Source: Massalongia carnosa (lineage: Eukaryota). From it: a DNA stretch of 64,000 bases. Numbering within the stretch: the stretch's first letter is position 1; each line of letters starts with the position of its first letter. The DNA lies in contig OZ287067.1 in the NCBI GenBank assembly GCA_965645245.1, positions 868,001 to 932,000 on the forward strand, read 5' to 3'. Under the pieces are notes generated by a model that saw only the letters and a program-made list of their open reading frames with translations, was not told where the DNA came from and made no database searches. Positions 21,562 to 60,443 of this stretch are shown here, in pieces. The position numbers and the translations under genes are program-made.

Positions 21562-23436
21562 ATGTCGTTGATAAATTTCACCCTTTCACGCACCATCCAA
21601 CTGACGTATCTCCGCAGATTCACAGTCGTATCATTATCTCCTCATCTGCACCGAAGTTGTTCGAGGGAGGCTCGAAAATATGCGCACATGGGCCCACCAG
21701 AAGATCATGCTTCTCCCAGTGACATATACGAACCATTCTTTCGGCATACTTCTCGGAGATGGATGTAAGCAACTCATACAAAGAATTGGCCGCGACCCTT
21801 CTAATACGGTTGACAAGCTTCAATGAAAAACAGCGCATGGCCGAGCGCTATGTTCGCTTCAATGTACCCGAATTGATGCGTACCGCAGCGATGGCGGTAG
21901 GAAGAGACAGATGTGTCGATATAATGAAGGTCACTGAAGGTGGTTTTAATAAGATATTTCTTCTTACGATGGATGATGGATACGAGGTGATAGCGCGGAT
22001 CCCTACACCTATCGCTGGACCGGCTCACTATACGACCGCGAGCGAGGTTGCAACCATGGACTTTCTCCGTGCTCGACTGGACATACCAACACCAAGGGTA
22101 TTTGCGTGGGCTTCCCGGGTTGGTGGCGATAACCCTGTCGGTGCAGAGTACATCATAATGGAGAAGATGCAAGGAGAAAGTCTTGCTTCCCGCTGGTTGT
22201 CGCTTTCCACGAAGGAACTCGCCGAAGTCATCGAGAAAATTGTAGATATCGAGAGTCGGCTCTTTTCAGCTCGTTTTTCGGAATACGGAAGCTTATACTA
22301 CAAAGAGGACTTGGAAGAAGAGGTTCGCGAGAATAAACCAAACGAGCAAAATGGAGTGGACCTTTTCTCTGGCCAATTTGATATCGGGCCTATCGCAAAC
22401 AGATCATTCTGGGCAGAGGAGCGGGACCAGATGACGTTAGACCGCGGACCATGTTTGTTTCCCCGTATATGTCACGCAATACTCTACTGATCGAACCGTC
22501 ACAGGGATTCGCTCAGAGGATTATTTGACCTCTATTGGCAAACGAGAGGCGGCTTGGACTATTAAGCTTGGACAACCACGGCATAGACAATTCTTTTTCT
22601 CTTTCTCGGAGCAAAACATCGAACCAAAAGATCATATCTCCTTACTTTCACAATACGGTCTTGTGGCCCCATGTATTGAACCTAAACAAGAAGGCCTTGC
22701 CTCACCAACCCTCCGACATCCTGATCTCCACCAAAGTAACATCTTCTTACGTCCACAATCAACAGACATACTTGGTATTATTGACTGGCAAGGTGCTTCA
22801 ATACTTCCGTTCTTTCTTCAATCAGGATTTCCTGTTTTTTGTGACCACAACTCAGGGCGTCCACAGACGTTGGAGAAGCCGAAACTCAGCGATAATTTTG
22901 AGGAGATGAGTCCCGGAGAACAGCAAGAAGCTTTGATGGACTTGAAGCATAAACAAGCAAACCTTTATTACACAGCGGCTACGGGACTGAAGTGTAAACG
23001 TCACATGGAGGCGCTTCGGCTACCATACCTTGACATGCGGCAGTATCTGATCAAGCAAGCTGGCATGCCTTGGGATGGTGATTTAGTTAACCTTCGAGCA
23101 GCCCTGATCGGAGTCCACTCTAAATGGGACGATCTTGTTGGAGAACGTGCCTGTCCAATTTCGTTCACGGATGAGGAAGTGCGATTTGCAATGCAAGAGA
23201 GCAGAGAATGGAACGAAGCCGCCGAAGTGCTTACCACGATAAGGGATACGCTGGGTATCGATGGAGAGGGTGGCACGGATCCTGAGAATTACAATCGTGC
23301 TGCGGCTCTCAACAAGGAATGGAGGATACAAATGCTAAAAGAAGCAAAGGCGGAGGAGAAGGAGCGAAGTTGGCAGATATGGCCATTCAAGGACGATGGT
23401 GACGACTCTAAAGCGCCCACAGCTGTAAATAACTGA
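21562..23436 (+). CDS. APH/Aim9-like phosphotransferase (kinase-like fold), 2 introns
   Basis: FFRHTSRRW spliced to FNE..RYVRFNV; EGGFNKIF, ARIP, SEVATM, catalytic HPDLHQSNIF and IIDWQ. Introns at about 21765-21817 and 22453-22504. Confidence 0.85.
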
Positions 23437-23783
23437 CTATTCTATATGCCTGTACTTTCGAAATTGTATAAGGTCAACAACGACAGTTTAGCTGCATAGA
23501 AAAACCCCCCGTTGAACGTCCTGCCGTAAGCCGTGTAGATGTGAAGGCTTTTAAGAGTCTGCAGGCGGGAAGCTAAATACGACGAAGCAACTCGATGATC
23601 CGGGAATAGTCAAGATTATCCGGATTTATAAATACTCGTAGACGCCGACGGAATTCGTTCCACGATTGGCGACTACCCCACCATTGCGTTGCTTTTATCG
23701 GCCTTATAATAGCCTCACTTTAGTACAAGATAGCTCTGCCATAGTATGTTCCTCTAGTGACAAAGTTTTATCGACCCCAAGCC

Positions 23784-26700
23784 ATGCTCTTCCGAAACGA
23801 CATGGCAGAAATTGATGCGTTAGTACACCTATTTTGATACAGCAGGAAATGATCTGACCCTACTTGTGTGGCAGTAAGCCTTGCTTCGATTTCAGGCGTG
23901 GGAAATGCAGATACGGAAATAGATGCAAGTTCACTCACGAGTCCAAGCCCACTTCAAAAGCGCCTCATCGCGAACCATGCCCATACTTTGGGACATCGAA
24001 GGGTTGCTTTAAAGGGCAGCAGTGCAAATTCTCGCACGAAATCGTGGCAGGTAAAAATGGTGCCACAACACAACCACCGCAGTCTACCGCTAGGCCACGA
24101 CCGCAAAGCGAACTCGAAACCGGCTTCCGAGAATGGACGTTCCTGATACCGAGGCAGAATACCCGGTTCCAAGTTGTGGAGGTTGGGAAGTTCTTCACAG
24201 TGGGCTGGGACCTCACCAGCAAAGAGCATACAGAAATTGGGCAACAGATTATTAAGAAGCTAGCAACTGAGGAAGGGCTGGCCATGATCAAGGCCCTTGC
24301 AGATGAAAAGCTCGATGGCGTCAAGCTAGAAGCGAGCCTGCGTATCTTTAAGGACAGAACGCTTCCCTTTTTCCGAACCATCTCTCACCCGGACATTCTA
24401 TCGTCCTTGATATTGGAGACACCGCTCGACACCATTTACACGTTTATTTTTGGCCCAAACGGTCGTCGTGCTATCAACTTGTTCAAATCTACGACTTCCG
24501 CTCTTGGAGCCCTTGCGCGGGAGGAAACAGCCAAAGATGAAGACCTGACGTCGATTGCGGTAACAGCGAGCTTAGCGGTGCTAGAGAGAATCGTGGAGTT
24601 AAATCAAAGCGCCCAGGTCATTACGGAGCTCACGTCGATTGTGAACGACTTTTCAACCTCAATCCCAGAACAACTTCTGCAGGCCGGAAGTCGAAGCTTA
24701 GCTCGTGTTCGCCAACGACTTGGTCTTGGAGCTGCAATGCCTTTGTCAGGAGGCCGCCCTCTAGAGCAGAAGAGCCATCGACCGGTCTTCGAAGTAGGTC
24801 AAGACCTTCCTGGCGCGTTGTCGGAGCTAGGTCCACGACACGACAACGATCACGCAAATATCTTCGACATCAAGATCCTGCCGACTACCGAAGAAATTCA
24901 ATCCCCCCGATTGGAGTATCTACCTTCGAGCGATCCTACGAAGCACCATCTTCCTGGTCTGGCGGGCTTACTCGACCGACAATTCAGACTTTTGCGTGAA
25001 GATACAGTCGGTCAACTCCGCGATGCAGTGCAGATGGAATGTAAGCGGCTTAACAAACCCCCTAATGCCCAACCGCCATCAAAGCGACAGAACAATGGCG
25101 TTCGAAATATCATCTATCACAATGTCGCTCTGCTTCGACTTGAGTTCGATCGGAAGAAAGGGCTCCAGGTTGTGGCTGAGTTTGACCAACCTCCCGCACT
25201 GGCGAAGAAGGGAGCCAAGGAGCGAGAAGAGTGGTGGAGGAATACCAAACAGCTACAGATCGATGCTTTTGTATGCCTTGTCTCTTCCACAGGTCGTGCT
25301 ATCTTCTTCTCTATTTGCGATCCTACTCCGACGCCTCCGCCAAAGAAGAAAAATGGTGAGGAAGAACGTGAGGTTCGATCAGCCGGATTTTGGAGGGCCT
25401 TCGATGAGCGGCCGAATCTTTTCAAGCATGCAGACCGAGCCACGTTAATGCTAAGCCCGGTCGAGGATGATTCGGAAGATGTCACTTGGATCAACAATCA
25501 CCTCGGAAAGGCTCACAAGCTACGACGGTCGCTTGTCGAGTTCCCAGGAATTCTACTACCGTCCTTCCGACCGACGCTGCAAGCACTTCAAAAAATGAGC
25601 CGCACCCTTGATCTCCCTTTCGCTCAATTTGTCGCCCCCGATACACAACATGCAGGAGATGTCGACATACCTGCCCCTGCGTACTCTCGCACGCCTGGCT
25701 TTTCCTTCAATCTGGAGACCTTGGCTGGAGGAGAGCAGCTGAGACTTACACCCGGACAGCCTTTCGGCGATACCACACTCCATGAGAAATCTACACTCGA
25801 CGATATGCAGCAGCTGTCTACCATAAATGCATTAAGAAGCTGTCTTGCGCTAATTCAAGGCCCACCAGGTACCGGCAAGAGCTACACTGGTGTCGCTATC
25901 ATCAAGGCCTTACTAAAAAATCGCAATGCAGCTAAGCTCGGGCCAATTATCTGTGTATGCTACACCAATCACGCTCTCGACCAGCTTCTCGAGCATCTAG
26001 TTAAGGATGGCGTAGAGCAGCTCATCCGTTTAGGATCGAGATCGAAATCAGAAGTTCTCCAAGACTTGAACCTCTACCATATATCAAAGGAAATCAGGCC
26101 CACGAAGGTTGAAGGCCATGAGAAATATCAACTCTATGAAAAATTAGATATCGCTCTTGATGAAATTGAGAAGCTCATGCCAGGTCTTCGGGATCCAGCG
26201 CGCTGGAGCAATATCAAAGATTACCTCGCAGGGCACCACAACGGTCACTTCGAGCAACTTTTCGGACGGGGAGTTGACGAGCATGGATTCCGGGAGGTAC
26301 GCGGTAAGAAGTTCAATATTTTGCATAGTTGGATCCACGGAGCGCCCAAGCGCATTGCTTCAACTCGCCCAGTCCCGGAACTTCTCGGTGTCAAGTTACA
26401 GGAGATGTCTGGCTCCGAAAGATTGGCGTTGCACAGGTACTGGGTCCGACAAAACACCATGGAACTCACCCGCAGTTTCCTACACGTTCTCGACTCATAC
26501 CGCCATATCAATGATTCGCTCAAAAAATGCCACCAGGAGCTAGACCTGCGTTGCCTACTTCGCGCACACATTATTGGTGTTACAACCACAGGCCTGGCAC
26601 GAAATTTAGATATCCTCCGCCGAGTGCGAGCAAAAGTGGTGGTATTTGAAGAGGCGGGAGAGGTATTAGAGGCACATACCCTCACCGCACTCCTGCCTTC

Positions 26701-29700
26701 CGTCGAGCATGCCATTCTCATTGGGGATCACGAGCAGCTAAGGCCCCAGATCAACAACTACGAGTTCCAATACGACAATCCTAGGGGTGCAAAATTCTCT
26801 TTGGATATCTCGCTTTTCGAACGACTGGTCCATCCTCAATCTGGTTATCCGCGGCTTCCTTACAGTTCGCTGGAGGTTCAGCGTCGGATGCATCCATCGA
26901 TCGCGGAGCTGGTTAGGTCCACGCTCTATCCTAAGCTGCAAGATCACCCATCAGTATCCACGTATCCAGAAGTCGACGGAATGCGGAAACGCCTCTTCTG
27001 GCTCGATCACAACAAGAGGGAAGATGCTTCCCCCTCGAATACAGTGCAGTCATTTTCCAAGACTAATGCTTGGGAAGTAGAGATGACAGCTGCTTTGGTC
27101 TCTCATCTCGTCCGCCAAGGAGTCTACCGGAACGAAGATATCGCAGTCCTGACTCCTTATCTAGGACAGTTGCAGAAGCTCAAACAGCGCCTACGATCCT
27201 CCTTCGCGATCGTGGTCGGTGACCGAGATCTCGAAGATTTGGAGGCGAAGGGACTGGAGGGTGATAGTGAAGAAGAGACGACTGCAAATCAAGGTAATGT
27301 TCGCAAGACAACGTTGCTGAACGCTTTGAGGATCGCTAGTGTGGACAACTTCCAGGGAGAAGAGGCGAAAGTCATTGTCATCTCATTGGTCCGGAGTAAC
27401 GACGAAAGGAAGTGTGGATTCCTGAAGACGTCGAATCGTATCAACGTCTTGCTAAGTCGCGCCCGCCACAGAATGTATATCATCGGCAACACACACACCG
27501 CACGTCCTGTTCCTATGTGGGATAAGGTTATCACGATCCTCGAGAACGACGGAAACATAGGTAATACTCTAGCGCTATGCTGCCCGCGACATAAAGAAAC
27601 CCCAATCGAGGTGTCGGAGCCCGACGACTTTTCTATCTTGTCGCCCGAAGGTGGCTGCAACAGAAAGTGTATCTCACGACTTAGATGCGGACATGCCTGT
27701 ATCAATAAATGCCACTCGGAACCGCTGCATAATGCTGTTCGGTGCCTGGAGCGCTGCCAAAGGGTCAAAAAAGGCTGTGATCACGCCTGTCCGAAGTTTT
27801 GCGGAGACCCCTGCGATTCGAAATGTCAAATCCAGATGCCGAATATCGCCTTGCCTTGTGGGCACGTTCAAACAAGTTTGGCATGCCACCTTGCACAGGC
27901 TCCGGAAGCTGTTCGATGCCATGTCTTGGTTGAAGCTGTTATGCCAGATTGCAAGCATACTGTAAAGGTTCGCTGCTGCGAATTTCCACTTGCAGCAGAT
28001 CACCCATGCAACGCTACATGCGGGGCCGCTCTCGGGTGTGGCCACGACTGTAAACGGATTTGCAAAAATTGCAACCCAAGAGGTGAAGACGGCCATATCT
28101 CGGAAATTAATCACGGTGTCTGCAAGACTCAATGTAGTAGACAGTACACCACTTGCAGCCATGCGTGCTCAGAGGCATGCCATGGGGATAAGCCATGTCG
28201 GCTCTGCTTGGAGCCGTGCGAAGTTCGGTGCAGTCACTCGCGTTGCAGTAAGAAATGCCACGAGCCTTGTGTGCCTTGCGTCGAAAACTGCTCTTGGTCT
28301 TGTCCACATCGCGGCGCGTGCAAATTGCCATGTGCGGTGCCCTGTGACCTGCTTCCGTGTTCCCAACGCTGTTCGTTGCCGCTCAGTTGTGGTCATGAGT
28401 GTCCTTCTGTCTGCGGAGAAATATGTCCAGAGGCCCGATACTGTCAGAAGTGCGCCGATAAGTCGGTGAAGGATACGATGGTTGATTACATCATGGGATC
28501 CACCTACGCCGAGATTGATCTAGACGAAGGCCCTTGTATTATACCATCTTGTGGTCACATCCTCACCTTAGAAAGCATGGATGGCCACATGGAGATCGCA
28601 AAATACTACATCATCTCTGATGACACCAATGGTGAGAACTCAATTATCGGATTGAAGTCGAGGTCGGTTCCGTTCTCGACCTCGGAGCTGAAAAACTGTC
28701 CTATGTGCCGTAGCCCTCTTCGCAATATCAATAGATATGGCCGCATAGTTCGACGAGCGTGGATCGACGAGGCGACTAAGAAATTTGTTGTTTGGGCAAA
28801 CGCCCAGTTTGTTCCCTTGGCCTCCAGAATGGAGCAGGCAGAGGCCAAACTTCGAGAATCCGTCACTGAAAAGCAAGCCCCCAAATCTCCGCTGCCTGGA
28901 CAAGCGGAGCTATCTTCCGCGCTTGACAAGCTTTCCCTCGAGCAAATTGGGCTTACCGGTTCTCGTGATCAACAGATAAAGGTAGTTCTCAAGGCCTGCA
29001 AAGCAAACCCTAGATACAAGGATGTATCATGGCTCCGCAATGAAATTAAAAGATTCCTCAAGGAAGTTGATGAAGCAGAACAACCCATTAGCCGCATTCA
29101 TGATCTCGTACAAGACGCGCGTAAACATCGTGGTGTCAACACCGAAATCATTGACTTGCCGTCCGTTCTTCAAGTCCACAACAGGCTCCTAGCAACAGTG
29201 CTACTCCTCCGTTGCGACTATGCCATACTCTCCGATTTCGTCACTCACGGCTGCGACATGGCTTCAGGCGGAAATCTTGGGAACGTGTGTCTCAACCTTG
29301 CCTCAAATCGAAAAGATTGCGAGAACCTAATGCAAGAGTCGCGATCCCGGCAACAACCGGCTCACGAAGTGGAGAGTCTCCTGTACTGGGCCCGCTTCGT
29401 CGCCCTTGAGCGCAGCCGCTCTGCCAGCCTCTCGGACGCAGACACGATCGCGCTCGTCGACCGCGCCCGAGACCAACTCCACCTCGCTCGCACCATCTGC
29501 AAAACCAACCCGGGTCAAACAGCCGGCATGTCGGAGGAAGTGTCCGCAGCGGAGAAAATGCTGCGCGACTCGACATTCTACGCGCCGGTGACGAATGTGG
29601 AGAAGGCGGCTGTGTACGCTGCCATGGCGCAGAGCTTTCAGGGTACGGGCCACTGGTACTACTGCGCCAATGGGCATCCGTTCACGGTGGGCGATTGCGG

Positions 29701-29827
29701 CATGCCGATGGAGACGTCCAGGTGTCCCCAGTGTGGGGCTACTGTGGGTGGGGCCCACCATCAACCTGCAGACGGGGTTAGGCGGGCAGAAGACTTGGAA
29801 GCGGAGTTTGGGAGGCGAGGCCGGTAG
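23784..29827 (+). CDS. ZNFX1/NFX1-type SF1 RNA helicase with CCCH fingers, NF-X1 Zn-finger array, RING-like region and C-terminal RZ-type finger (about 1,995 aa)
   Basis: Two N-terminal CCCH fingers. Helicase motifs QGPPGTGKS, EEAGE, IGDHEQL, DNFQGEE and NVLLSRARH. Cys/His-rich CGH repeats, CIIPSCGH..CPMCR, and terminal GHWYYCANGHPFTVGDCG..CPQCG. A short first exon starts at ATG 23784. Confidence 0.92.
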
Positions 29828-30945
29828 ATCTCGTTAGATGCTGGAAGGGTTGTCAGTGGTAGAAAGCCGATGCGGCGTTCTTGTTCCAGTCAAAAAAAGG
29901 GAGGGAAATCACTTGACCGGTGCCAGAGTGCCGCGATAAGCGAGGTGGCAGTAGGTCACATTCAGGCTGAAATTGCTCTGCATATGCAGAATCCCTATTT
30001 ACGCGTGGAACTCCAAGGAATGCCCCACCTCCTATCAAACCCTTCAACAAACTAGAGGTAATGTTCTGCATCCCGGTAAGATCTCCCCCATTTCCTTTCA
30101 AACTCATCCAACTCGAAGGCCGGCCGAGTGTGGACGTCATTGAAGCGATGACTGGGATGCACAAGGAGGAGGAAGGCTGACTTCGAAGGCAGCTCACAAT
30201 AGCCGAGGTAGGCGATGGAGTCAGGAAAGAGTCTAAATACGGCGTCACAATGCCGATGGTGAGGGAGAGATACAAGAGTGTAGTGTAATGTTCATTAACT
30301 CCCATCTCTCATGCAAGTCGATCAACGTAGGGAAAGTTCTCCTCGCGATCTGATCGATGCTGTTGCGCCGGAGTAGGATGATCGTAAATGGCCGGCTTTT
30401 ACCCAGTCTAAAAGTAGAACGATGTGTTTCAGGCGGCGGACGATCCCGATGACTCATTGAACAAATTAGGTTACTGTCGCAGCCCCAAAGCTGTGCCGCC
30501 GCCAAGGCTTCATTGCCTGCCAACCACCACACCTTGTGTCGGCGTGTTCATAACACCATCCCACAGCGCACCAGCGGCAATAAAGACGTGTGCCTCCCGT
30601 CCCCTCATTCCCAATCATGATGTCCCCACCACGAGCAAAATCGGATGTAAAGAGATATGGGCGGCAACCTTTGCTGGACCCATTGAAAACCCAAGGTAAA
30701 ATAGCCACCATACATTCCAAACCGTCCTTCAGCTGACAACCTACAGCAGCACAACCACGCGGTATCAAACGAAAAAAGTCGATTACGCCTGTTCGTAAGA
30801 GCGCACGTCTACAAGAGGGGAAACGCCTTTGTCAACAACCGGATATTCAAGAACAACTATTGCAACTTCCTTCACCGACCAGTCTCACGCCTGACAAAGA
30901 GGTATGTTCTACAATCCCTCGGCGTACAACTGCGACCACTGACTT

Positions 30946-32361
30946 ATGCCAAAGCGTCCACAGGAATCATTCAACCCTTCCAATCTAGATCGAAAGCGGA
31001 AACGGAAACGAAGTGAAGAGCTTGGACAGAATTACACACCTGAGGCCAAAAGAGCTGCCTATACACCTTCCGAACGCCGGGAAAGCCTTACCCGAAAACG
31101 TCAACGAACCTCACCTGCAAAACGTGCTGTTGCAACACGTACAGGCCTTCGTAGTGACACCAAGAACCGCGAAGTCAACCCCATCCAGCGTTGGATCGAA
31201 GAAGGAAGTTGGTCTGGAGGAAATTTCAAGCAAGACAGCAGCATGACTCATTCCCTTACCCGGAAGAGGTCGACTCCGTCTCTCAGCAAACATGAATCGG
31301 ATATAACTGGCGTTTCTTTAAGAGAGGGAAAGAACCCTCTCGTCAAGAGCCGGCGCTACGAGCAAATACTTGTATCTGCTGGCATTTATATGGATGATGA
31401 CGACAAGGTAGCCGCTACGAAAGAATGCAAGGCTCTATGCCAGACCCTACTCAATACGGACCAGGCAGTGCCTCATGATTCTCTCTTCAACGATGACTTA
31501 TTCAAAAGGGTTTGCCAAAGGATCCGTAATAAAAACGAAGCCAGGGTTGTCCGTGATCTCTTACCTCTCCTCGTTCCTTCCGCCGAAATTGTCTACCTTC
31601 GCGGTGCTACAAACCTCGAACATCTAATCGAAACCGTTGATGAAGGTTGGATCAAATCCATTCCCCTCGTCAAAGGTCCTCGCCCGCAGCCCGACTTTGC
31701 CGTAGGGCTCAGATCATCTGCATTCACCTCTGAGCAACTTAAGAAATTGCAACCGTCTATCGGTGATTGGCAGACTACATCTCGTCTAGTGGCTACAGAT
31801 GAGATGTATTTCCCATTCCTGACAGCGGAGGTGAAATGCGGCAACGAAGCACTCAACATCGCGGATCGGCAAAACGTTCATAGCGCCGCCGTCGCGGCAA
31901 ATGCTGTCGTCGAGTTGTATAGATTGGTATCGCGTCAAGACGAGCTCAACCGAAAAATTCTCACCTTCTCAGTTTCGCACGACCATCGGGCTGTAAGGAT
32001 CTATGGCCATTACGTTTTGATCAATGGGAAGGATACCTCTTTCTACCGCCATTTACTTCGAGACTTCAGTATTACCGATCAAGATGGCAAAGACAAGTGG
32101 ACTGCCTACATGTTCACCCTGAGCGTTTACAACGACTTTCGTCGAATCCATCACGACAGAATTACTTCCGCAGCTGATCAGCTGCCTGACCCAGAAGACT
32201 TCGCTGTAGAGTCCTTCTCCCAGCAATCAAACCTTGAGTCATTCGAACAGAACGATAGCCAGTTGACCGCCTTATACTCACAACAGACAGAGCCGGAACT
32301 TCCGTCATCTCAGACCTCTGAACCTGTGTTCAAAAAACCAAAGGGGAAAGGCAAGAAGTAA
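30946..32361 (+). CDS. Fungal PD-(D/E)XK-fold-like protein (DUF7924-like)
   Basis: PQPDFAVG, YFPFLTAEVKCG, ADRQN.HS and VRIYGHY motifs after a basic low-complexity N-terminus. The true 5' end may include an upstream exon ending at about 30901. Confidence 0.7.
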   Translation: MPKRPQESFNPSNLDRKRKRKRSEELGQNYTPEAKRAAYTPSERRESLTRKRQRTSPAKRAVATRTGLRSDTKNREVNPIQRWIEEGSWSGGNFKQDSSMTHSLTRKRSTPSLSKHESDITGVSLREGKNPLVKSRRYEQILVSAGIYMDDDDKVAATKECKALCQTLLNTDQAVPHDSLFNDDLFKRVCQRIRNKNEARVVRDLLPLLVPSAEIVYLRGATNLEHLIETVDEGWIKSIPLVKGPRPQPDFAVGLRSSAFTSEQLKKLQPSIGDWQTTSRLVATDEMYFPFLTAEVKCGNEALNIADRQNVHSAAVAANAVVELYRLVSRQDELNRKILTFSVSHDHRAVRIYGHYVLINGKDTSFYRHLLRDFSITDQDGKDKWTAYMFTLSVYNDFRRIHHDRITSAADQLPDPEDFAVESFSQQSNLESFEQNDSQLTALYSQQTEPELPSSQTSEPVFKKPKGKGKK

Positions 32362-32696: not shown

Positions 32697-32783
32697 GCAT
32701 CCACAACTGGAAGCATCCGGAATTGGCGACATCCACAAATAGCGACATCCAGAAGTGGCGGCATCCAGAATTGGCGGCACCCA
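32697..32783. repeat. Short imperfect tandem array (about 16-bp unit, CATCCAGAATTGGCG-like)
   Basis: 5-6 imperfect units read directly. Confidence 0.6.
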
Positions 32784-43461: not shown

Positions 43462-44719
43462 CCGAAGCCCTCGGACACCAAAGAGCTTGCTAAGCTCGAT
43501 GGTCGAAGGCAATCAAGGCCTCGGACACCAAAGAGCTTGCTAAGCCCGATGGTCGAAGGCACTCAAGCCCTCGGACACCAAAGAGCTTGCTAAGCTCGAT
43601 GGTCGAAGGCACTCAAGTCCTCGGACACCAAAAGAGCTTGCAATGCTCGATGGTCGAAGGCACCCAAGTCCTCGGACACCAAAGAGCTTGCTAAGCTCGA
43701 TGGTCGAAGGCACTCAAGTCCTCGGACACCAAAGAGCTGCTAAGCTCGATGGTCGAAGGCACTCAAGTCCTCGGACACCAAAGAGCTTGCTTAGCCCGAT
43801 GGTCGAAGGCACTCAAGCCCTCGGACACCAAAGAGCTTGCTAAGCTCGATGGTCGAAGGCACTCAAGTCCTCGGACACCAGAAGAGCTTGCTATGCTCGA
43901 TGGTCGAAGGCACTTAAGTCCTCGGACACCAAAGAGCTTGCTAAGCTCGATGGTCGAAGGCACTCAAGTCCTCGGACACCAAAAGAGCTTGCTATGCTCG
44001 ATGGTCGAAGGCACTCAAGTCCTCGGACACCAAAAGAGCTTGCTATGCTCGATGGTCGAAGGCACCCAAGTCCTCGGACACCAGAAGAGCTTGCTACGCT
44101 CGATGGTCGAAGGCACTCAAGTCCTCGGACACCAGAAGAGCTTGCTACGCTCGATGGTCGAAGGCACTCAAGTCCTCGGACACCAGAAGAGCTTGCTACG
44201 CTCGATGGTCGAAGGCACCCAAGTCCTCGGACACCAGAAGAGCTTGCTACGCTCGATGGTCGAAGGCACCCAAGTCCTCGGACACCAGAAGAGCTTGCTA
44301 CGCTCGATGGTCGAAGGCACTCAAGTCCTCGGACACCAGAAGAGCTTGCTACGCTCGATGGTCGAAGGCACCCAAGTCCTCGGACACCAAAGAGCTGCTA
44401 AGCTCGATGGTCGAAGGCACCCAAGTCCTCGGACACCAAAGAGCTGCTAAGCTCGATGGTCGAAGGCACCCAAGTCCTCGGACACCAAAGAGCTTGCTAA
44501 GCTCGATGGTCGAAGGCGCTCAAGTCCTCGGACACCAAAGAGCTTGCTAAGCTCGATGGTCGAAGGCGCTCAAGTCCTCGGACACCAAAGAGCCCGCTAA
44601 GCTCGATGGTCGAAGGCACCGAAGTCCTCGGACACCAAAGAGCTCGCTAAGCTCGATGGTCGAAGGCACCGAAGTCCTCGGACACCAAAAGAGCTCGCTA
44701 AGCTCGATGGTCGAAGGCA
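43462..44719 (+). repeat. Tandem array of about 25 copies of a 49-51-bp unit inside the Copia 5' region
   Basis: Unit AAGAGCTTGCTAAGCTCGATGGTCGAAGGCACTCAAGTCCTCGGACACCA repeated head-to-tail without spacers. A degenerate extra copy lies at about 44820-44870. Confidence 0.95.
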
Positions 44720-45210
44720 AAAAAAGTATATTGCTGGCCCTGAGCGCCCCATTGGTTCAAAAATCATCAAAGCGTCAGTTTCACCCGTGGTTGAGTTCTG
44801 GACACGCAAAAAATACAAAATCCCTCGGACATCAAAGAGCTTAGTAAACTCATTGATCGAAGGCACAAAGACCTTTCTTTTTGGCAATTATGCCTCCTTA
44901 AGGCACTAGATGAGATTGTGCGGCAGTTGCCTCTTATTATTTAACCGGCCTAAGGCCGGTTAAATCAAATTGGAATAACCCTGCGCTCAATTTGCTTTTG
45001 GTCAATTGGACCCTTGAAAAAGCCGAAGTTGAAATTCTCATCATGGCAAACAAGCATGTTAAGCAAACAGGTTTCTCTGTTGAGACATCAGAGTGGACAC
45101 TGGCTAAGGAGGGACTGTTTTTTCCTTGTCTATAAGAAAGGTCACAGATCCACATTCTTTCAGTCACTACTAAGTTTCTCGCCTTGTTCAATTGCTCCCC
45201 ATTCTCCCAT

Positions 45211-48200
45211 TATGCCTATCATAGATACGTCACATCTTTTGGAGAAAGCCGAAAGATATTCGGCATGGGCAAGCTATACGAAGGGCATTCTGCTTAAGAA
45301 CAACTGCGAAGGAGCCATTCTGGAGAGTCAATCAGAAATCACCGCTGAAACCATCAAGGAAGGTTTAATACAAGCAGGCTTCGACGCCAAAGGTCTTTCA
45401 GTCAGCATCTTGGTAAAAGAACTGCGTGACTAGAAGAATAGACAGAAGGCCGAGATGACCAAGGCTATAGGAATCATTCACGGATTAGTTGCGGAGTGCC
45501 ATTACAGCCTCATCGACAACAAGAATGTGGCAGAAATGTGGAAAATCCTGAAGGATAGATTCCAAGATATAGCACCAATGAGCATCAGCGACATCATTCT
45601 GAAGGTTAGTTCCAAGAAGATGACCGACTTCGAGACGACCAGTCTATACTGTGCATATTACGAGAGCGCTTTAAACAAGATTAAAGGAATGCTGGACGAC
45701 AAGGCCAAAGTGGATGTGCATACCGTGGAGTTTATGCTTAAGGGAATGATGCTGGGTAACACCAGACGTCTATTCCCCATTGATAGCCCAACTTCGACGA
45801 GATTGAACATACGAAACCACAAACCTGTCGGAAGCAATGAAGACCATTATTGCTTATTATGTCAACATGAAAATCACCAAGGCACTTCATATCAGCACAC
45901 CTGACTCAAGAGGTCGAGCCCCATCAGGGAACTGCACCTTCTCTTAATGTGTCAAGAGAAAGAACACTCATCATTGGCTAGATACCTGTTTGCAGAAGTT
46001 TCCACAGTTAAAAAGACATAGAAGTTCGCTCGAATCCGGAAGAGCAAAGGAACAAAAGACTACCTCGTTAGAAACGAAGGCGGACTTATCTCATACATCA
46101 ACCAACATTCCAACGACCATTGACACTCCAGATTTGAGGATGCATTTGAGCAAAGTGGACGAGGACACCTATCAAGGACTGGACGTCATTATCTGTCAAA
46201 TCAAAACTCACTACATGGCTTGGAAGGCTTGGTCATCTCAACATAGCAACGTGTCGAAAATATCTGAAAACGCTAGACATAACGTACGATGACGATATCA
46301 ACCACGGTTGGTTTTGCCATGCATGCGAAATGGGAAAAGCCAAAAAGATATACAACCGAACACGGCAAGAGAAGGCCACAGAGCTCTTTCAAAAGATAAA
46401 CTCTGACCTAGTGGGACTAATCAAGCCATCAGGACTTCTTGAAGAACTTTACCTCTTCACTTTCACCTGTGATGCTAGCAGATACACTCATGTCTATACC
46501 GGACACAAGAAGAGTGAATGGTTTGATCACTTGTTGACATACTACAGCATGGCTCAAAACAAATCCGGAAAGGCTAAACTCATAAGCAGTTTTCGCACTG
46601 ACTTCGGCACGGAGCTTCGCAGTCACAAGTCAGACGTTTGGTCCTTGGAACAAGGCATAACGTTTGAAACAGCTGCTCCATACTCTCAAGATGAAAACGG
46701 AGTCGCGGAACGAATGGGCAGAACCATCATGGACATGACAAGATGCAGTGTCATTGCCGGAGACATTCCAGACTACTTGTGGGCAGAAGTGGTTCTAGCC
46801 ATGGTTCACACCAAGAACGTCAGACCAACCAACGCCTTAGCAGGTAAAACCCCGTATGAGATCTTCGAGAAGAAGTCACCTAAGCTGGATCACCTGAGAA
46901 TTCTCGGATCTACAGTCTATGCATTAATTCACGAAGAAGAGCGAAAAGGAATAAACAGCAAGGCTGCTAAATTTTCTCCGAGGGCTCAGAAAGGAATCCT
47001 GTGTGGATATGACAGAAGCACCATCTATCGCGTCTTTATGGAAAAAGACTACAAGGTCATCAGGGTCAAGGACTTACGAATTCATGAAGACGCCACATTC
47101 AAAGATGGGACCGATCTACCCTCGTACGACTCAACATATCATCAAGCAATGAACTCCAAATACGCAAACGAATGGAGTCAGTCTGGGTAATGGATGAGAT
47201 CAAAAGTCTGCTGGAGAATAAAACCTGGGATACATTACCTACCGAGTCCATGGAACCCGGACATATAGTCTTAAGTGGCAAATGAGTATTCAAGCTGAAA
47301 CGGGACGTAAATGAAAAGATCGTTCACTTTAAAGCCAGATGGGTTGTCAAGGATATCTCCAACAATACTGAGTAGATTTCGATCAAACCTTTGCATCTAT
47401 GGTCAAACAATGGCTTTTCGCTTGCTATTCGCGTTAGCTGCTCATCACTATCTGCACATCGAGCGACTGGATATAGTGACAGCTTTTCTGTACGGTCTCA
47501 TTATCAACTCATCTATGTCCACATGCCGAAAGGATATGACACAGCTGGCATGGTGTGTAGGTTGAACAAAGCCCTGTACGGTTTGAACAGTCTCCGCGTC
47601 CCTGGTATGAACGACGGTCAGCTTTTCTATTGAGAAAATTAGGATTGGAGAAACTCCACGCAGATCATAACATTTTCATCACACCTCAAGGGATAAAAGG
47701 ACACATTGTTACCTCTTTCGTTGACGATTTGAACATCATAGGCCCAAAGGGTTCCCCGATGATCACCGAAGTCAAGAAACAGCTCAAGCTAGCTTTCAAG
47801 ATGGTAGACATGGGACCAATCAGCTACTATCTAGGCCTTAAAGTCGAACGAGATCGAGTCAACAAAACTATAAAGCACTCCCATGCGAGAAGGCTGTCTC
47901 TTCATCAATGAATTTCAGGACTCCGACAAGGACATAAAGCAATATCAAACCATGGTCGGATCCATCACGTTCGCAATGATAGAAACCAGGCCAGACATAG
48001 CTTTCGCAACGTCCGTAATCAGTCGAAATGCAAAGAATCCAGGCAAAACACATGAAAGCGGCCAAACACATTCTCAGATACCTTAGCGGTACCAAGAATA
48101 GAGATATCACCTTCGACAAATAGCAGCGAAAATCCAACTGGGGTTATGTGTTCATGCTGAACAATGGACCAATAAGCTGGTGTTCCAAAAGACAAATAAC

Positions 48201-48591
48201 CGTCACATTGTCATCAACCGAAGCAGAGTATATGGCACTCACCTTAGCAGCAAAGGAGGCAACATGGCTACGTTTACTGATGACCGAACTCGGATTGATC
48301 ACTTCTGATGACGGATCCCCGACAATAAACGTGTTAAGAGGAGAAGGCACAATTGCATTGAAAGGCGACAATCAAAGCGCCATAGCACTGGCCAATAACC
48401 CCGTATTACACTCCAGGACCAAGCATATCGACATTCAGCACTACTTTATACGAAACGAGGTGCTAGAAGGAAGAATCGACCTCACCTATGTTCCGACCGA
48501 AGACATGATTGCAGATGGACTGACAAAAACCCTCACGCACGTCAAGTTCTTCTCCTTTATCAGACAGCTCAACATGGACAAACAGACATGA
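45211..48591 (+). pseudogene. Copia gag-pol remnants (gag, rve integrase, RT fragments, RNase H)
   Basis: Integrase SDLVG..RTDFGTE..ENGVAER, RT FVDDL and RNase [26 protein letters not shown]. Multiple stops, frameshifts and deletions. Confidence 0.9.
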
Positions 48592-49031
48592 GAGGTAAAG
48601 AAGTTCAACCACGGTTGAATCCACGATGGAAACAAGTACTGGTAGGACTTGAGGGGGGGTGTTGAATATCCAATTCCTACCAGCACAATGAACACCTATC
48701 AGTACGATGAACATAGCACCTACGGCTGCCCTAGATGGACAGATCATCTACGGAAACCGTAGATGCCGCATTAGGCTTAGTCCCAAGATAAGATAAGATC
48801 ACCTCGCTTAGAAGGGGGTGACCAGTAATAGGAAAAGATTGCTGCCTAGCAACTCTTCATCCTTAACATCACGGTCATACATATTACATAGCCATATAGC
48901 CATAGTCATATACCTATTTCAACAGCTTGATATTATAGAAATTATTTTCCAGTAAGACTGTGCCTCCGCTTGCTTGATATGATCTGACGTGAACCATTCT
49001 CAACCATCAATACCGAAAATAAAAGTCCCCT

Positions 49032-49080
49032 TAACATCCGTCCCTGGGTCGCGAGACGCACCCCGTCGCGAGACGAACCA
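49032..49080 (+). repeat. Dispersed internal repeat, short copy B (about 50-bp core)
   Basis: TAACATCCGTCCCTGGGTCGCGAGACGCACCCCGTCGCGAGACGAACCA matches the start of 34775 and the reverse complement of 53727-53776. Confidence 0.85.
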
Positions 49081-49950
49081 ACAATTTGGACATCTAAAAT
49101 CTCTCCCTTGCAAGTCTATGGAGATATGGTTGGTAAAGGACTTTTTTACAGCCTTTTCTCCTCCTGGACACCCTTCTTCAACGAAAATTACCGCGGTGTT
49201 GGTCATGCTGTCGCTCGTTCGGTTGACGCCATCAATTGCCGCTTCAGCTTTTTCCCCCTGCTAGATCACGGTCAGTCACATATTTTCGGTTTTCGGAACC
49301 ATACGTAGTAGTATGATAGTCCCATGAAGAAAGAATATAGCTCCAAGCTTTAAACATACATATAGAAGTCTCGCCGTGCAAGAAAGGGTGGCGACGGCCT
49401 CGCGCCTTGGGGCGATATTATAGCGTACCTTGGCGTGCATTAGTTTATCTGCTCAATACTGTATTTTTGGTATTATATCATGCCATCCCCTTTTCGGTTA
49501 GGATGACTGTGGCGCACCGTGGTAGGTTTCTAGAAGCGTCCATGGGGAGGCACGTGCCCACTTTCTTTGCGCCTAACTTAAAGGGGGTTCTTGGCGAGAG
49601 CGAGTAGCTTAGCGAGGGAAAGAGCCAGCCAGTGAGCCAAGTAGCATTACACATGCAGGTTCGCCTAAGATCTCACGCACTTACTATGGCAGTGCTTTAG
49701 TGCATGAAGCTAGTGATTATGGACCGCTACTTCCTGGCACGAGATCAAGCCTCATTCCGCCCGTATTGGCTGCCTCACGACCGGCAATTCTTGCAAACTC
49801 ATACTACAATCGACATTCTTAAAGATCCGTCGCCTTGGTTGCGAACTTCGACGGCCGTTTTCGATTCTGCAAAAAGTCTGCGATCGGTTCTTCACTTCGA
49901 CAATTCTCTTAGTTTGATCCGATTGAGAATACGGCTGCGCACAAAACACC

Positions 49951-52116
49951 ATGGAGCACCTCCTGTGTGATGAGGAACTACGTAGGCGACGTCCAAGTAT
50001 GGCAAGAGTGAAATGGCTGGGGTTTGACCACGATTCAAATGGCGAGTATGAAAGGGGCTCCATCCAAGAATACCCTCTGCGCCGAGGTTGGACCGCTATA
50101 GAGATCGATGATCTTAAGAAATGCAAATTGCCAAGTCATCGCTCACTTAAAGATTCCCTCGCTATGCTGCAAAGTTGGATGAGTCTTGGCCTCATGGAAT
50201 GCTTCTTTGGACAACCATTCGCCAGTTCCCTTTTTGTCTCCCAAGTTGGAAATACAGAATTCTTCCACACCAAGCACCTGCGAGGTTACATTGACGATTG
50301 GCAGACTCGCAAATTGCCTTCGTTCCCTCGCCTAGTGATGCTCATGTTCGAGGGTTGCATCACGGACGCCCTGGATGAGGCCCAATCTTGGAACCACCAG
50401 CTGGTCCTCACACAGCGCTTGTACAAAGACCGTAGCCTCTTTGCGGATCGTGCGCTTTTCGATTCGGTGATTCGATTGACTACATTAGTTGGGGAGGCTC
50501 TACAAGCTCTAGCGGAGAGATTTCCTACGTCCAGAAGCAGATTCGCTATGGGGTACGAATGGTTCATCTCAGACGGCAATGAACAGCGACTGCATACCCA
50601 ACTAGAAAGACAAGGTTGGTGTCCGTCAATATACAGGATTCTTATCAAAGGCCTCCGTATGCCATTGTCACTATTGGAATATGCTAGCCTCGTTCGACCA
50701 GCCGACGCAGACCTTCGTATGCACGAGCGCTGCTCATTGCATGATTGTGTAGGATACAATTTGGACAACAAGACGTATCGGACTGAGCACATCTTTAAAG
50801 GCTGCCAATGCAAGCCTTTCTTGTTGCCGTCCCTCTTGAAGACGAGAGATATTCTTCTCGATAACGATGTTCCACTTATCAATGGAGATGTCTTGTTACA
50901 ACGCAGCTCTGCAGAAGGCTCTGTGTCTCGTGCCGGCTCTGGTCTTCGTTACGTAGCCTTTTCTCACATCTGGTCTGATGGTCTCGGCAGCTGTACAGAA
51001 GATGGTCTGCCCCGGTGCCAAGTAGAGGCCCTATGCAATATGGCAATGGAAGTTGGGAACACGTCTCAATTCTGGATTGATTCTCTTTGTATCCCAAGAG
51101 ACGTTCGAACGAGGAAGCGAGCTATCTCACAGATGGCGAAAACCTATCGGAATGCGTGCGCAACGATAGTCCTTGATAATCGAATCAAGACATGCAGCGC
51201 ACAAGACACCAAAGAAGAAATCATGCTTACTTTAGCATCGTCTGTGTGGCAACGGAGACTTTGGACCTTACAAGAAGGTGCGTTATCTAATAGAATGTAC
51301 TTCAAGCTGGCAGACTCATTTCTGCACGATGGGACGCTCCTGGACAATGCGGGTCCAGAGGCGTATAAACCGATCATCAGAAATTGTATCTCACACCTGG
51401 ACAATATCAGTGCTTGGGCTCTTGTTGGTGATGTAACTATTGGCGCAATGCAACGCAACATATCTCATAGAACGAGCAGTACACATGACGATGAGGCTCT
51501 GGCAATGGCCTCTTTGCTAAATCTGGATGTCTCCGACATCTCTCGATTACTCGATGTCGACGGCGAGGAGCGGATGATACGCTTCTGGTCCATGGTTCCC
51601 TCGATTCCCCGAGGCATAGTAATACTGGGGGGCGCAAGAATTAAGCAGGAGCCATTCCAGTGGGCACCGAGATCGCTGATGAGTAGAGAAGATCAAGGAT
51701 CAATGGACAAAAGGGACGGGAGTGCGAAATCTACGTCAATGGGCTTGTTAGCGACCTGGTATATCTATACAGTCACAAAGGGCGTGCTTGTGAATCTCGC
51801 TGTCGATCAAGCTCACTTCTACAATGCACAGACGAGCGCTGTTCTTACTGTCTATCCCGATAAGGAACGCACAGTCGAACCATTTCACTGCCACGTGGAT
51901 GCGATCTTGTGTCTTGACAGCCTGCCAGTCAGCGACCGCGAGACAGCTGGTGTTGTTCTTTCATTCGTCAAGACGTCTGGCCGCCGCAAGGTATACAAGT
52001 ATGAGAAACTATGTCCAGTCTGCTTGCATGATAATGAGCCAGCAGAATTCATCAGATTTCTAAAGCAAGAAGAACAAACCGTCACAGGCGCCATGGAAGA
52101 GCTGGTTATATCTTAA
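49951..52116 (+). CDS. HET (heterokaryon incompatibility) domain protein, 721 aa
   Basis: HET motifs YVAFSHIWSDGLG, FWIDSLCIP, AISQMAKTYRNA..VLD and WQRRLWTLQEGAL in an intact ORF. Confidence 0.9.
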   Translation: MEHLLCDEELRRRRPSMARVKWLGFDHDSNGEYERGSIQEYPLRRGWTAIEIDDLKKCKLPSHRSLKDSLAMLQSWMSLGLMECFFGQPFASSLFVSQVGNTEFFHTKHLRGYIDDWQTRKLPSFPRLVMLMFEGCITDALDEAQSWNHQLVLTQRLYKDRSLFADRALFDSVIRLTTLVGEALQALAERFPTSRSRFAMGYEWFISDGNEQRLHTQLERQGWCPSIYRILIKGLRMPLSLLEYASLVRPADADLRMHERCSLHDCVGYNLDNKTYRTEHIFKGCQCKPFLLPSLLKTRDILLDNDVPLINGDVLLQRSSAEGSVSRAGSGLRYVAFSHIWSDGLGSCTEDGLPRCQVEALCNMAMEVGNTSQFWIDSLCIPRDVRTRKRAISQMAKTYRNACATIVLDNRIKTCSAQDTKEEIMLTLASSVWQRRLWTLQEGALSNRMYFKLADSFLHDGTLLDNAGPEAYKPIIRNCISHLDNISAWALVGDVTIGAMQRNISHRTSSTHDDEALAMASLLNLDVSDISRLLDVDGEERMIRFWSMVPSIPRGIVILGGARIKQEPFQWAPRSLMSREDQGSMDKRDGSAKSTSMGLLATWYIYTVTKGVLVNLAVDQAHFYNAQTSAVLTVYPDKERTVEPFHCHVDAILCLDSLPVSDRETAGVVLSFVKTSGRRKVYKYEKLCPVCLHDNEPAEFIRFLKQEEQTVTGAMEELVIS

Positions 52117-52729
52117 AACAATTTGCGTTGTTCCCCCATTGTTCCGTTTCTTCATACCTTGCCCGGGCAGGCATCGCCAAGCTTGAAGCCCGTGTTCGCA
52201 AGGAGCGCAATCGCGAATGTCCCTAGCTCAGAAATACCCTGACTTCTTTGAGGCTCAGGCGTGCAGATAGAAAATGTCATCAATGCATATGAAGCGGCAT
52301 TTGATACCAAATTTGATAGTGTGACGTACTAGGTGTACGCGGGCAGTAGTATACGATGTGAGATACTGCAACAACCATGCATAGGTGATTCCGACAGACT
52401 GCCGACGGGACTCCGACGGTAGTCCGACAGCATCGAGTTATGGAAGCACCTGGAATGAATTGGGGGCACCTATGCCAACAGCAGTAGGAGAGGTTGATTG
52501 AAAGAAAGACTAACTCTTGCCCCTCCATGGAGGTGGCAGAGTGCTATTATATAGAGATGACTTCCCCGCATTTGTAAATCAACCAATAGAGAATGAAGCA
52601 ATACATATAGCGCGCGACGAGGTTCCGACGGGCTTCCGACGGACCTCCGACGCGGCCCCGACCGCATAGATATCTCATTATGCCATTATACTCCATGCAG
52701 ATGCTCGCCACCATATGCTTGCAGTCTGA

Positions 52730-53050
52730 CGGTTACATAACAACTTAGGCAACCTTTACAAGAATCAAGGCAAGCATAGCGAGGCGGAGAAGATATATCG
52801 GCGGGCGCTGGATGGGTACGAGAAAGCATGGGGCCCGGACCATATATCGACTCTTGATACCGTCAACAACTTGGGCAACCTTTATAAAAATCAAGGCAAG
52901 CTGGTGGAAGCAGAAGAGATGTATCGGCGGGCGCTGGATGGATACGAAAAAGCATAGGGCCCGGACCATATATCCACACTCCGTACTCTCAATAACCTAC
53001 GTTTGGTTGATGCCAGTCGAGGTGGGCATATGAAAGTGGAAGAGATATAA
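52730..53050 (+). pseudogene. TPR-repeat relic typical of fungal NLR C-termini
   Basis: Two roughly 42-aa repeats NLGNLYKNQGK..EAE..YRRALDGYEKA(W/*)GPDHIST, with a stop codon and no upstream NOD domain. Confidence 0.8.
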
Positions 53051-60387: not shown

Positions 60388-60443
60388 AAGCGGCGGCTCC
60401 TTAGTCAGCGACCGATCACGTGTTGGCCTGGGTTCGGGGATGC

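What the first reader, a model, noticed from the sequence alone, without database searches (positions are those of the whole stretch)
21562..53050. Cargo resembles a mobile defence/conflict island
Seen: one element carries a ZNFX1-like helicase, an OTT_1508-like deaminase-MYND fusion, a HET effector, an NLR-type TPR relic, two PD-(D/E)XK-like genes, a possible zf-3CxxC fragment and a kinase-like protein. No metabolic cluster was recognised. Known: HET and NLR-TPR proteins act in fungal non-self recognition and cell death, and ZNFX1-family proteins act in RNA silencing and antiviral sensing. Inferred: a eukaryotic counterpart of a bacterial defence island, with antiviral, allorecognition or element-maintenance (toxin-antidote/drive) functions.
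Basis: partly seen in the sequence, partly recalled or inferred. Interest (0 to 1): 0.75.

Follow-up and report, generated by a model that had tools for sequence, protein, structure and literature searches.

The report
Giant transposon ferrying immune-like helicase
A 40-kb fungal "Starship" transposon carries an intact RNA helicase–ubiquitin ligase like the human antiviral protein ZNFX1, which seems to be passed between unrelated lichen fungi, plus a shifting mix of other conflict-type genes; no defence function has been shown.

Summary
The stretch is the cargo of a Starship (about 20086-60442, minus strand) with an intact tyrosine-recombinase captain, inserted in a TA run. Confirmed and uninterrupted: ZNFX1-like helicase with a complete RZ E3-ligase finger, OTT_1508 deaminase–MYND fusion, standalone HET, DUF7924 (restriction-endonuclease fold), APH kinase-like gene. 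The TPR, zf-3CxxC and second nuclease-like genes are relics, and a 6-kb copia element was missed. The set is not a fixed island: the OTT_1508 and HET families are not Starship-enriched in this genome (0 of 14; 4 of 34, p=0.085) and no close copy flanks 76 related helicase loci. The helicase is the recurrent passenger: 3 of 5 other RZ loci lie inside or beside termini of this Starship family. Its clade is 73-94% identical across unrelated lichen fungi, conflicts with taxonomy, is under purifying selection (dN/dS about 0.19), is spliced in RNA libraries, and has changing RNA-immunity-like neighbours. The resident chromosomal RZ copy has a premature stop. HET/NLR cargo is known, and such helicases appear unremarked in a published cargo table. 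Best reading: a mobile hotspot of immune-like genes centred on a horizontally moving ZNFX1-like sensor-ligase. Antiviral function is inferred only.

The parts
20086..60442 (-). Starship element, about 40 kb, inserted in a (TA)n run; exact ends ambiguous by a few bases
   Evidence: Inverted terminal CCCCGAAC motifs and GAGGGAGCA subterminal repeats (I9); terminal pattern has 19 genome hits vs 0 for the control
56848..59913 (-). Captain tyrosine recombinase (DUF3435), 7 exons, about 880 aa, open frame, R-K-HxxR-H-Y present, first gene about 530 bp from the 5' end
   Evidence: 91% DNA identity to the sister captain. The catalytic consensus is recalled
20807..21208 (-). Small conserved unknown gene near the 3' end
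   Evidence: 89% aa over 101 residues in the tandem sister locus; L029; RNA contig of a relative
21759..23436 (+). APH/phosphotransferase kinase-like gene, 541 aa, intron 22453-22504
   Evidence: Pfam PF01636; model; intron spliced in RNA run X21
23802..29827 (+). ZNFX1-like SF1 RNA helicase: 2 CCCH fingers, helicase core, Cys-rich stalk, C-terminal RZ finger; 1989 aa; intron 23819-23874
   Evidence: intron spliced in RNA run X20; dN/dS 0.18-0.22 in 6 of 6 comparisons
30617..32361 (+). DUF7924 PD-(D/E)XK-fold nuclease-like gene (PQPDF...AEVKC), about 545 aa, 2 introns
   Evidence: introns spliced in X19/X20; about 60 loci in the genome
33384..34474 (+). Unknown gene shared with the sister element
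   Evidence: 84% DNA identity; no Pfam hit
35361..35927 (+). ORF with one degenerate C2H2-like motif (by eye), no Pfam hit
36440..37150 (-). Unknown conserved ascomycete protein, BTB lead
   Evidence: Atlas 0.93, BTB in 39% of members; also in L032
37144..38407 (-). Pseudogene of a 'GGPS-like' family with a RAI1/DXO lead; one frameshift and two stops
   Evidence: 94% aa to an uninterrupted copy in L032; atlas RAI1 0.89, 49% of members
38611..38772 (+). N-terminal relic of a Zn-ribbon 3CxxC gene; the finger is absent
39161..42573 (+). OTT_1508-like deaminase (HAE...CCLLC) fused to MYND, about 1100 aa, 2 introns
42939..48928 (+). Nested Ty1/copia LTR retrotransposon, broken frames, LTRs 96% alike, 51-bp tandem array 43465-44719
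   Evidence: 98% copy at C1:958977-962000
49951..52116 (+). Standalone HET-domain protein, no NOD domain
   Evidence: PF06985 E 1.8e-10
52730..52990 (+). TPR relic of NLR type (about 2 repeats, then a stop)
54465..56443 (-). Two unknown genes downstream of the captain (a coiled-coil ORF and a ~245-aa ORF)
   Evidence: no informative Pfam hit
34792..34818 (+). Repeated motif GTCNCGAGACGCACCCCGTCNCGAGAC; other copies 49048-49074 (+) and 53733-53759 (-)
   Evidence: 3 of 4 genome-wide copies lie in this element
60462..62023 (+). Decayed 5' end and captain fragment of a second family member, head-to-head in the same TA run
   Evidence: I1-I5

Best explanation
A TA-targeting Starship acts as a mobile hotspot for immune/conflict-type genes that turn over quickly. 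Its recurrent passenger is a lichen-fungal clade of ZNFX1-like helicase–RZ ligases that moves between unrelated lichen fungi. SHOWN: the element, an intact captain, an intact helicase with RZ catalytic residues, repeated linkage to Starships, discordance with taxonomy, purifying selection, and splicing of relatives' transcripts. INFERRED from human ZNFX1: the helicase binds foreign or aberrant RNA, which switches on RZ-mediated ubiquitination and RNA clustering, giving the host anti-mycovirus or anti-TE surveillance. The element would persist by supplying a gene that resident loci keep losing. The deaminase–MYND, HET, kinase and RAI1-like genes are independently captured modules of similar flavour, not parts of one machine.
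For: Outside the window, 3 of 5 RZ loci lie within 60 kb inward of Starship markers covering 4.9% of the genome (p=0.001). In metagenomes, 3 of 12 groups at >=70% identity have a captain, DUF3723 or FRE in the flank, vs 0 of 31 more distant groups (Fisher p=0.018). Identity over residues 300-1250 is 94% Wetmoreana, 89% Xylographa, 85% Letharia, 84% Vezdaea, 77% Endocarpon, while the resident copy's best database hit is 65%. Wetmoreana-Xylographa is 95%, and a Teloschistaceae clade is rejected, p-AU 9e-5. RZ Zn ligands and the Cys/His pair align with RNF213. Neighbours in other loci: OTT_1508, Piwi fragment, dsRNA-type C2H2 array, dynamin, CbxX-like AAA, DUF3638. A distant helicase-AAA paralog at C20 also sits head-to-head with a GGPS/RAI1-like gene. 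The resident RZ copy on C2 has an in-frame TAA at a conserved Lys. OTT_1508 relatives act in Neurospora antiviral editing (PMC12754623).
Against: There is no functional data. RNA evidence comes from contigs of other organisms, not this genome. The other Starship-linked helicase copies here are truncated, frameshifted, stop-bearing or relics, so retention is not strong. The sister element also carries non-immune genes (SIR2, RSN1-like, PhyH, RecQ-like helicase, kinase). OTT and HET are not Starship-enriched. Only 5 of 597 catalogued Starships have AAA_11/12 helicases in the held, cut copy of the table. Counts are small, the captain list is a capped lower bound, many species labels come from MAGs, and paralogy with loss is not excluded. 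ZNFX1 relatives also act in small-RNA silencing (recalled), so the target need not be viral.
Confidence: 0.5

Rival explanations
1. Neutral junkyard: Starships simply collect fast-evolving accessory genes (NLR parts, kinases, REase-fold genes, TEs). The defence look is a by-product, and the helicase hitchhikes without benefiting host or element.
For: Three relics plus a nested copia in 32 kb. DUF7924 (about 60 loci) and HET (35 loci) are common genome-wide. Other mobile helicase copies have decayed. Near-identical helicases sit in different neighbourhoods. PMC11162782 reports rapid cargo turnover.
Against: dN/dS about 0.19 among mobile copies; spliced transcripts in RNA libraries; at least two independent helicase lineages (54% identical over the helicase core) sit at the same family's termini; RNA-immunity-like neighbours recur.
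Confidence: 0.27
2. Selfish maintenance: the cargo protects or spreads the element itself. The DUF7924 nuclease, HET or deaminase would be a toxin and the helicase or kinase the antidote, or the helicase would shield the element from host RNA silencing.
For: A DUF7924 lies about 1 kb downstream of the helicase in the window, the sister element, L030, L033/L041 and L078, from more than one subfamily. DUF7924 lies downstream of captains far above chance (13 of 59, p 2e-9). Its nuclease fold and motif are intact. Spore-killer genes are listed among Starship genes of interest (PMC9156397).
Against: Most DUF7924 loci have no RZ helicase nearby (2 pairs within 15 kb). Most close helicase loci lack DUF7924. 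The sister keeps a DUF7924 beside a broken helicase. No toxicity or segregation data.
Confidence: 0.13
3. A coherent, co-regulated multi-gene defence island, possibly switched on through the repeated CGAGACG motif.
For: 3 of 4 genome copies of a 27-bp motif lie in the element, and the fourth lies just upstream of another HET gene. Helicase+OTT_1508 (L034/035/037/048; Penicillium s08578) and helicase+3CxxC+DUF3638 (Pyricularia s09315) recur elsewhere. Run X4 holds near-identical pieces across the whole 19.9-39.9 kb stretch laid.
Against: Those OTT genes are another subfamily (31% identity). The window's own OTT-MYND and HET gave no hit at E<=1e-6 in 76 flanks, and neither is in the sister element. 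Gene order is scrambled in L032.
Confidence: 0.1

Closest known systems
Starship transposons (PMC9156397 passages; PMC11162782 passages and supplementary table S7; Tangerine PMC13486527 parts 1-3 and section 11)
   Same: Captain first at the 5' end, terminal repeats, variable cargo, nested TEs. HET/NLR cargo is already described (also PMC13562431 passages). AT-rich targeting and captain HGT between lichen fungi are reported. S7 lists AAA_11/12 helicases in 5 elements, OTT_1508 under 7 element ids and zf-3CxxC in 2.
   Different: No DUF3723, FRE, PLP or full NLR in this element. It has a (TA)n target with repeated insertion at its own ends. A recurrent, horizontally shared ZNFX1-like clade is not discussed in the texts searched. 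The captain family could not be assigned.
Human ZNFX1 / RNF213 RZ-finger E3 ligases (bioRxiv 10.1101/2025.10.14.682297, passages)
   Same: SF1 helicase, Cys-rich stalk and C-terminal RZ finger with four Zn ligands and the catalytic Cys/His.
   Different: Fungal protein with N-terminal CCCH fingers, transposon-borne and multi-copy. The ARM and Miz domains were not tested; no activity has been shown.
OLD-ZAO antiviral RNA-editing module of Neurospora (review PMC12754623, parts 1-2 of 3)
   Same: OTT_1508-like deaminase with an intact HxE...CxxC centre.
   Different: Fused to MYND, and no adjacent C2H2 gene with an editable UAG was found.
Bacterial defence islands / MGE-borne defence hotspots (search listing and abstracts only)
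   Same: A mobile element with variable, co-located conflict-type genes. The helicase core scores against Mokosh MkoA (E 1e-68), probably as a shared SF1 family.
   Different: No gene here is a validated defence system; 12 of 13 proteins scanned had no PADLOC hit; clustering beyond chance is shown for only 2 of 4 families tested.

Membership tests
Starship | [quoted passage not shown] | tested here: met
   ATG at 59913, about 530 bp from the terminus; PF11917 hit weak on one exon (E 5e-4); spliced model
Starship | Catalytic R-K-HxxR-H-Y | tested here: met
   SARVGE, RDAK, HDIRR, AGH, SY in the model; consensus recalled
Starship | Terminal inverted repeats / target repeat | tested here: met
   CCCCGAAC at both ends beside TA runs; 19 vs 0 hits
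Starship | Empty insertion site in another genome | not testable with these tools
   No relative genomes held; X22/X23 hold next to none of the words, which is no proof of absence
Starship | Auxiliary genes DUF3723, FRE, PLP, NLR (common, not required) | tested here: not met
   Only a TPR relic among the ORFs scanned; DUF3723 is present in the sister element
Starship family (Tardis, Prometheus, Tangerine etc.) | Placement in the captain phylogeny | not testable with these tools
   No family HMMs or reference captains available
ZNFX1 | UPF1-like SF1 helicase core with intact motifs | tested here: met
   GPPGTGKS at 668, FEEAGE at 930, GDHEQLR at 956, VDNFQGEE at 1162; ZNFX1 is the best PDB hit
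ZNFX1 | RZ finger with Zn ligands and catalytic Cys/His | tested here: met
   residue roles
ZNFX1 | NF-X1 finger stalk, Miz domain, ARM region | tested here: inconclusive
   Cys-rich repeats are visible but no NF-X1 Pfam hit; Miz and ARM were not modelled
ZNFX1 | RNA-activated E3 ligase activity | not testable with these tools
   Needs biochemistry
OLD-ZAO module | OTT_1508 deaminase with HxE-CxxC | tested here: met
OLD-ZAO module | Adjacent C2H2 gene with a premature UAG | tested here: not met
   None of 8 single-TAG-interrupted frames in the element is a zinc-finger gene; no C2H2 Pfam hit
Fungal NLR | NACHT/NB-ARC linking effector and repeats | tested here: not met
   HET stands alone and the TPR is a relic
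PD-(D/E)XK nuclease (DUF7924 gene) | REase fold plus catalytic motif | tested here: met
   pLDDT 97; BpuSI Z 8.8 (rmsd 3.9, 153 aligned); DrdV Z 8.4 (3.3, 138); top hit mitoribosomal chain Z 10.8 (4.8, 218); many REases follow. Z values are modest
RAI1/DXO-like nuclease (GGPS-like gene) | REase-like fold and motifs | tested here: inconclusive
   Atlas lead 0.89; no PDB sequence hit; single-sequence fold failed, pLDDT 36
Defence island | Co-occurrence of defence-type genes beyond chance on mobile elements | tested here: inconclusive
   RZ 3/5 and DUF7924 14/59 enriched; HET 4/34 and OTT 0/14 not
Defence island | Demonstrated protection against viruses or mobile elements | not testable with these tools
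   Needs experiments
Spok-type toxin-antidote drive | Spok homology, killing and resistance | not tested
   No Spok reference was compared

The most novel reading that the evidence does not exclude
Lichen-forming fungi of different orders and classes share a Starship-borne pool of RNA-directed immune genes. Its core is a ZNFX1-like RNA sensor–ubiquitin ligase, joined variously by OTT_1508 deaminases, RAI1-like nucleases, 3CxxC fingers, Argonaute, dynamins and HET/NLR effectors. It replaces resident copies that have been lost, so Starships work as true eukaryotic defence islands, and guilt-by-association around this helicase would reveal new fungal antiviral genes.
Probability: 0.3. Interest if true: 0.82.

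Novelty: new variant of a known kind. Interest (0 to 1): 0.55.

Why it matters
Bacterial defence islands became a discovery engine for immune systems, and no equivalent has been established for fungi beyond NLR/HET cargo. An intact, expressed, horizontally moving ZNFX1-like helicase–RZ ligase gives a concrete, single-gene test of whether Starships spread antiviral immunity. It would also show whether RNA-triggered ubiquitination of the ZNFX1 type exists in fungi. Its neighbours (GGPS/RAI1-like, DUF7924, DUF3638, OTT–MYND) are ready-made candidates.

Tried and rejected
- Fixed multi-gene cassette: rejected.
- OLD-ZAO pair: no partner found. The RAI1-like gene's stop beside the deaminase was considered as an editing target and rejected, because the gene also has a frameshift and a second stop.
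- RAI1-like gene: fold failed; PDB sequence search empty.
- OTT exon: no PDB hit.
- Foldseek on DUF7924 gave only mitoribosomal chains at E<=0.001; the REase call rests on the wide search.
- Family termini were not found in the 76 metagenome flanks.
- The DUF7924 HMM from alignment A1 missed the divergent L030 copy that Pfam found.
- The dN/dS row for the captain's last exon (1.14) was out of frame and is disregarded.
- The first tree is the quick tree of 66 rows, with one representative per chosen locus; L092 and L098 dropped out. The Teloschistaceae test was run after that tree was seen.
- Read depth was not used to rank genes. Bins without RNA cover and the zero shares of X22/X23 are not evidence of absence.
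- Earlier-findings look-ups returned nothing.
- Paper searches linking ZNFX1/NFX1 to fungi, Starships or mycoviruses found nothing relevant; two searches listed no paper on a fungal Starship defence island. The library lacks most subscription papers, the Tangerine supplement could not be read, bioRxiv supplements are closed, and the NAR supplement is cut.
- No complex prediction was run, as no binding is claimed.

Full report
Setting. The window is G000:C1:868001-932000 of a 52-Mb, 25-contig fungal genome. The homologs of its cargo point to a lichen-associated ascomycete; the host's own lineage was not established. Host genes (ZIP transporter, PKA-like kinase, CBM21 protein) and a hAT transposon fill 1-19 kb.

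The element. Inverted GAGGGAGCA arrays at 20158-20221 and near 60300-60600 and terminal CCCCGAAC motifs beside TA runs bound an element of about 20086-60442 on the minus strand. The pattern TATATAYWNCCCGAAC occurs 19 times in the genome and 0 times in the control, so this is a TA-run-targeting family. The first gene is a seven-exon DUF3435 recombinase of about 880 aa with an open frame and the catalytic residues (consensus recalled). A decayed second member lies head-to-head in the same TA run. A sister of 49 kb, in tandem with a 12-kb member, lies at C1:3.067-3.129 Mb. No empty site could be tested.

Gene check. Intact genes are the APH kinase-like gene, the ZNFX1-like helicase, DUF7924, OTT_1508–MYND and a standalone HET. 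The fusion is real as a family: 10 of 23 longer homologs carry both domains, and a second copy lies on C20. DUF7924 folds (pLDDT 97) like restriction endonucleases, with modest Z values of 8-11. Three genes are relics: the TPR piece, the 3CxxC N-terminus and the GGPS-like gene, which has a frameshift and two stops against an uninterrupted copy in L032 and only a RAI1 lead. A 6-kb copia element separates the deaminase from HET.

The helicase. Its best solved relative is human ZNFX1 (E 7e-102). Its C-terminus aligns with the RNF213 RZ finger and keeps the four Zn ligands and the Cys/His catalytic pair described in bioRxiv 10.1101/2025.10.14.682297 (passages). Six RZ loci exist in the genome. They are the window copy, the sister copy (lacking the first 244 residues and frameshifted), a copy ending about 260 bp from a family terminus (48-51% identical, one in-frame stop that may or may not be intronic), a relic about 470 bp from another terminus, a relic near a DUF7924, and a resident copy among housekeeping genes on C2. 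The C2 copy has an in-frame TAA at a conserved lysine (a sequencing error is possible). The window copy is thus the only clearly uninterrupted RZ-bearing one. Two more distant helicases without an RZ hit lie on C20 and C9; the C20 one runs into CbxX-like AAA domains and faces a GGPS-like gene.

Mobility. Over residues 300-1250 the helicase is 94% identical to a Wetmoreana protein, 89% Xylographa, 85% Letharia, 84% Vezdaea, 82% Peltigera, 77% Endocarpon and 73% Lambiella; non-lichen fungi start at about 63%. The resident copy's best hit is 65%. In the tree the lichen clade is strongly supported but scrambled: Wetmoreana pairs with Xylographa (95% identical), and holding six Teloschistaceae rows together is rejected (p-AU 9e-5). 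Taxonomic ranks are recalled, and MAG mis-binning or hidden paralogy remain possible. dN/dS is 0.18-0.22 in 6 of 6 pairs. The 76 metagenome loci form 43 groups at 97% identity. A captain, DUF3723 or FRE lies in the flank in 3 of 12 groups at >=70% identity and in 0 of 31 below that (p=0.018). The marker queries came partly from those same loci and flanks were at most 10 kb. Four more close groups share window cargo such as APH, DUF7924 or the GGPS block. Other neighbours differ from locus to locus: OTT_1508 of another subfamily, a Piwi fragment, a dsRNA-type zinc-finger array, dynamin, AAA, SIR2 and DUF3638.

Expression and distribution. Contigs from RNA libraries of other organisms splice the helicase's first intron (X20), the APH intron (X21) and DUF7924 introns (X19, X20), and X21 covers nearly the whole helicase. 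Run X4, labelled a different organism, has pieces in 30 of 30 bins, many at 99%+ identity. No RNA from this genome was found.

Island test. The window's own copies were left out. Markers were 23 captain loci and 26 family termini (capped lower bounds), and 60-kb windows cover 4.9% of the genome. RZ 3 of 5 (p=0.001) and DUF7924 14 of 59 (p=8e-7) are enriched; HET 4 of 34 (p=0.085) and OTT_1508 0 of 14 are not. The sister shares the captain, the helicase, the 33.4-kb gene and a different DUF7924; the tandem member shares the small 3' gene. Neither has OTT, HET, APH or the GGPS-like gene, and the sister carries several non-immune genes. Other family members hold HeLo, HET, P450 and NACHT-type ankyrin or WD40 genes. 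So the flavour recurs but the set does not.

Literature. HET/NLR cargo is established (PMC9156397 and PMC13562431, passages). PMC11162782 (passages; cut supplement) lists, among 597 elements, AAA_11/12 helicases in 5, OTT_1508 under 7 ids and 3CxxC in 2. One Pyricularia element has an NF-X1 helicase, 3CxxC, DUF3638, dynamins and NLRs. The main text never mentions helicases. Tangerine (PMC13486527, parts 1-3, section 11 and term search) reports captain and cargo HGT in lichens but no helicase or deaminase; its supplement was unreadable. A Peltigera preprint has no such terms. OLD-ZAO (PMC12754623, parts 1-2 of 3) shows that an OTT_1508 enzyme can be antiviral, but no ZAO-like partner exists here. 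PMC3239186 (passages) suggests defensive roles for sporadic eukaryotic deaminases of this kind. Searches found no paper tying ZNFX1-like genes to Starships.

Verdict. This is a bona fide Starship whose cargo works like a loose, fast-turning defence hotspot; it is not a demonstrated or fixed defence island. The distinctive, apparently unreported part is the horizontally moving ZNFX1-like helicase–RZ ligase. Odds: RNA-directed host defence with turnover 0.5, neutral accumulation 0.27, selfish maintenance 0.13, coherent co-regulated island 0.1. Interest 0.55.

Noticed in passing
window 34792-34818, 49048-49074, 53733-53759; G000:C16:502297-502323; L032:2746-2761: A 27-bp tandem CGAGACG motif has 4 genome copies, 3 in this element. 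Two lie upstream of HET genes, and in L032 one sits at the edge of the GGPS-like block. It may be a regulator site or the end of a small cargo-shuffling unit.
   Followed up: partly
window 60443-62023; G000:C1:3079921: Family members insert into the TA run at each other's ends (head-to-head here, tandem at the sister locus), and many are mini-elements of 2-12 kb.
   Followed up: partly
window 11037-13373: A hAT transposon with an intact 669-aa ORF is 99% identical to a copy nested in the sister Starship, so it moved recently.
   Followed up: partly
window 43465-44719: A 51-bp tandem array of 25 copies lies inside the copia element.
   Followed up: no
G000:C21:751801-753935 (L114): A ZNFX1-like N-terminal piece lies directly upstream of an OTT_1508 deaminase, a possible fusion; a paralogous deaminase is on C19.
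   Followed up: partly
G000:C9:987073-991062 (L106): An OTT_1508 deaminase lies about 2 kb upstream of a HET gene on the same strand, echoing the window's order once the copia is set aside.
   Followed up: partly
G000:C20:943.5-952 kb (L146): A distant ZNFX1-like helicase running into CbxX-like AAA domains sits head-to-head with a GGPS/RAI1-like gene.
   Followed up: partly
window 39161-42573: The deaminase–MYND has a patchy range: 98% in Protoblastenia (61% of the query), 83% Lachnellula, 78% Amniculicola, 70% Glarea, suggesting cross-class transfer.
   Followed up: no
L033, L036, L038, L041, L045-L047: A large DUF6606/DUF3638/DUF3645 gene lies head-to-head with the helicase in three groups of loci.
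   Followed up: no
window 62226-63760: An AT-rich, mutated Ty3 gag relic truncates the second captain region.
   Followed up: no
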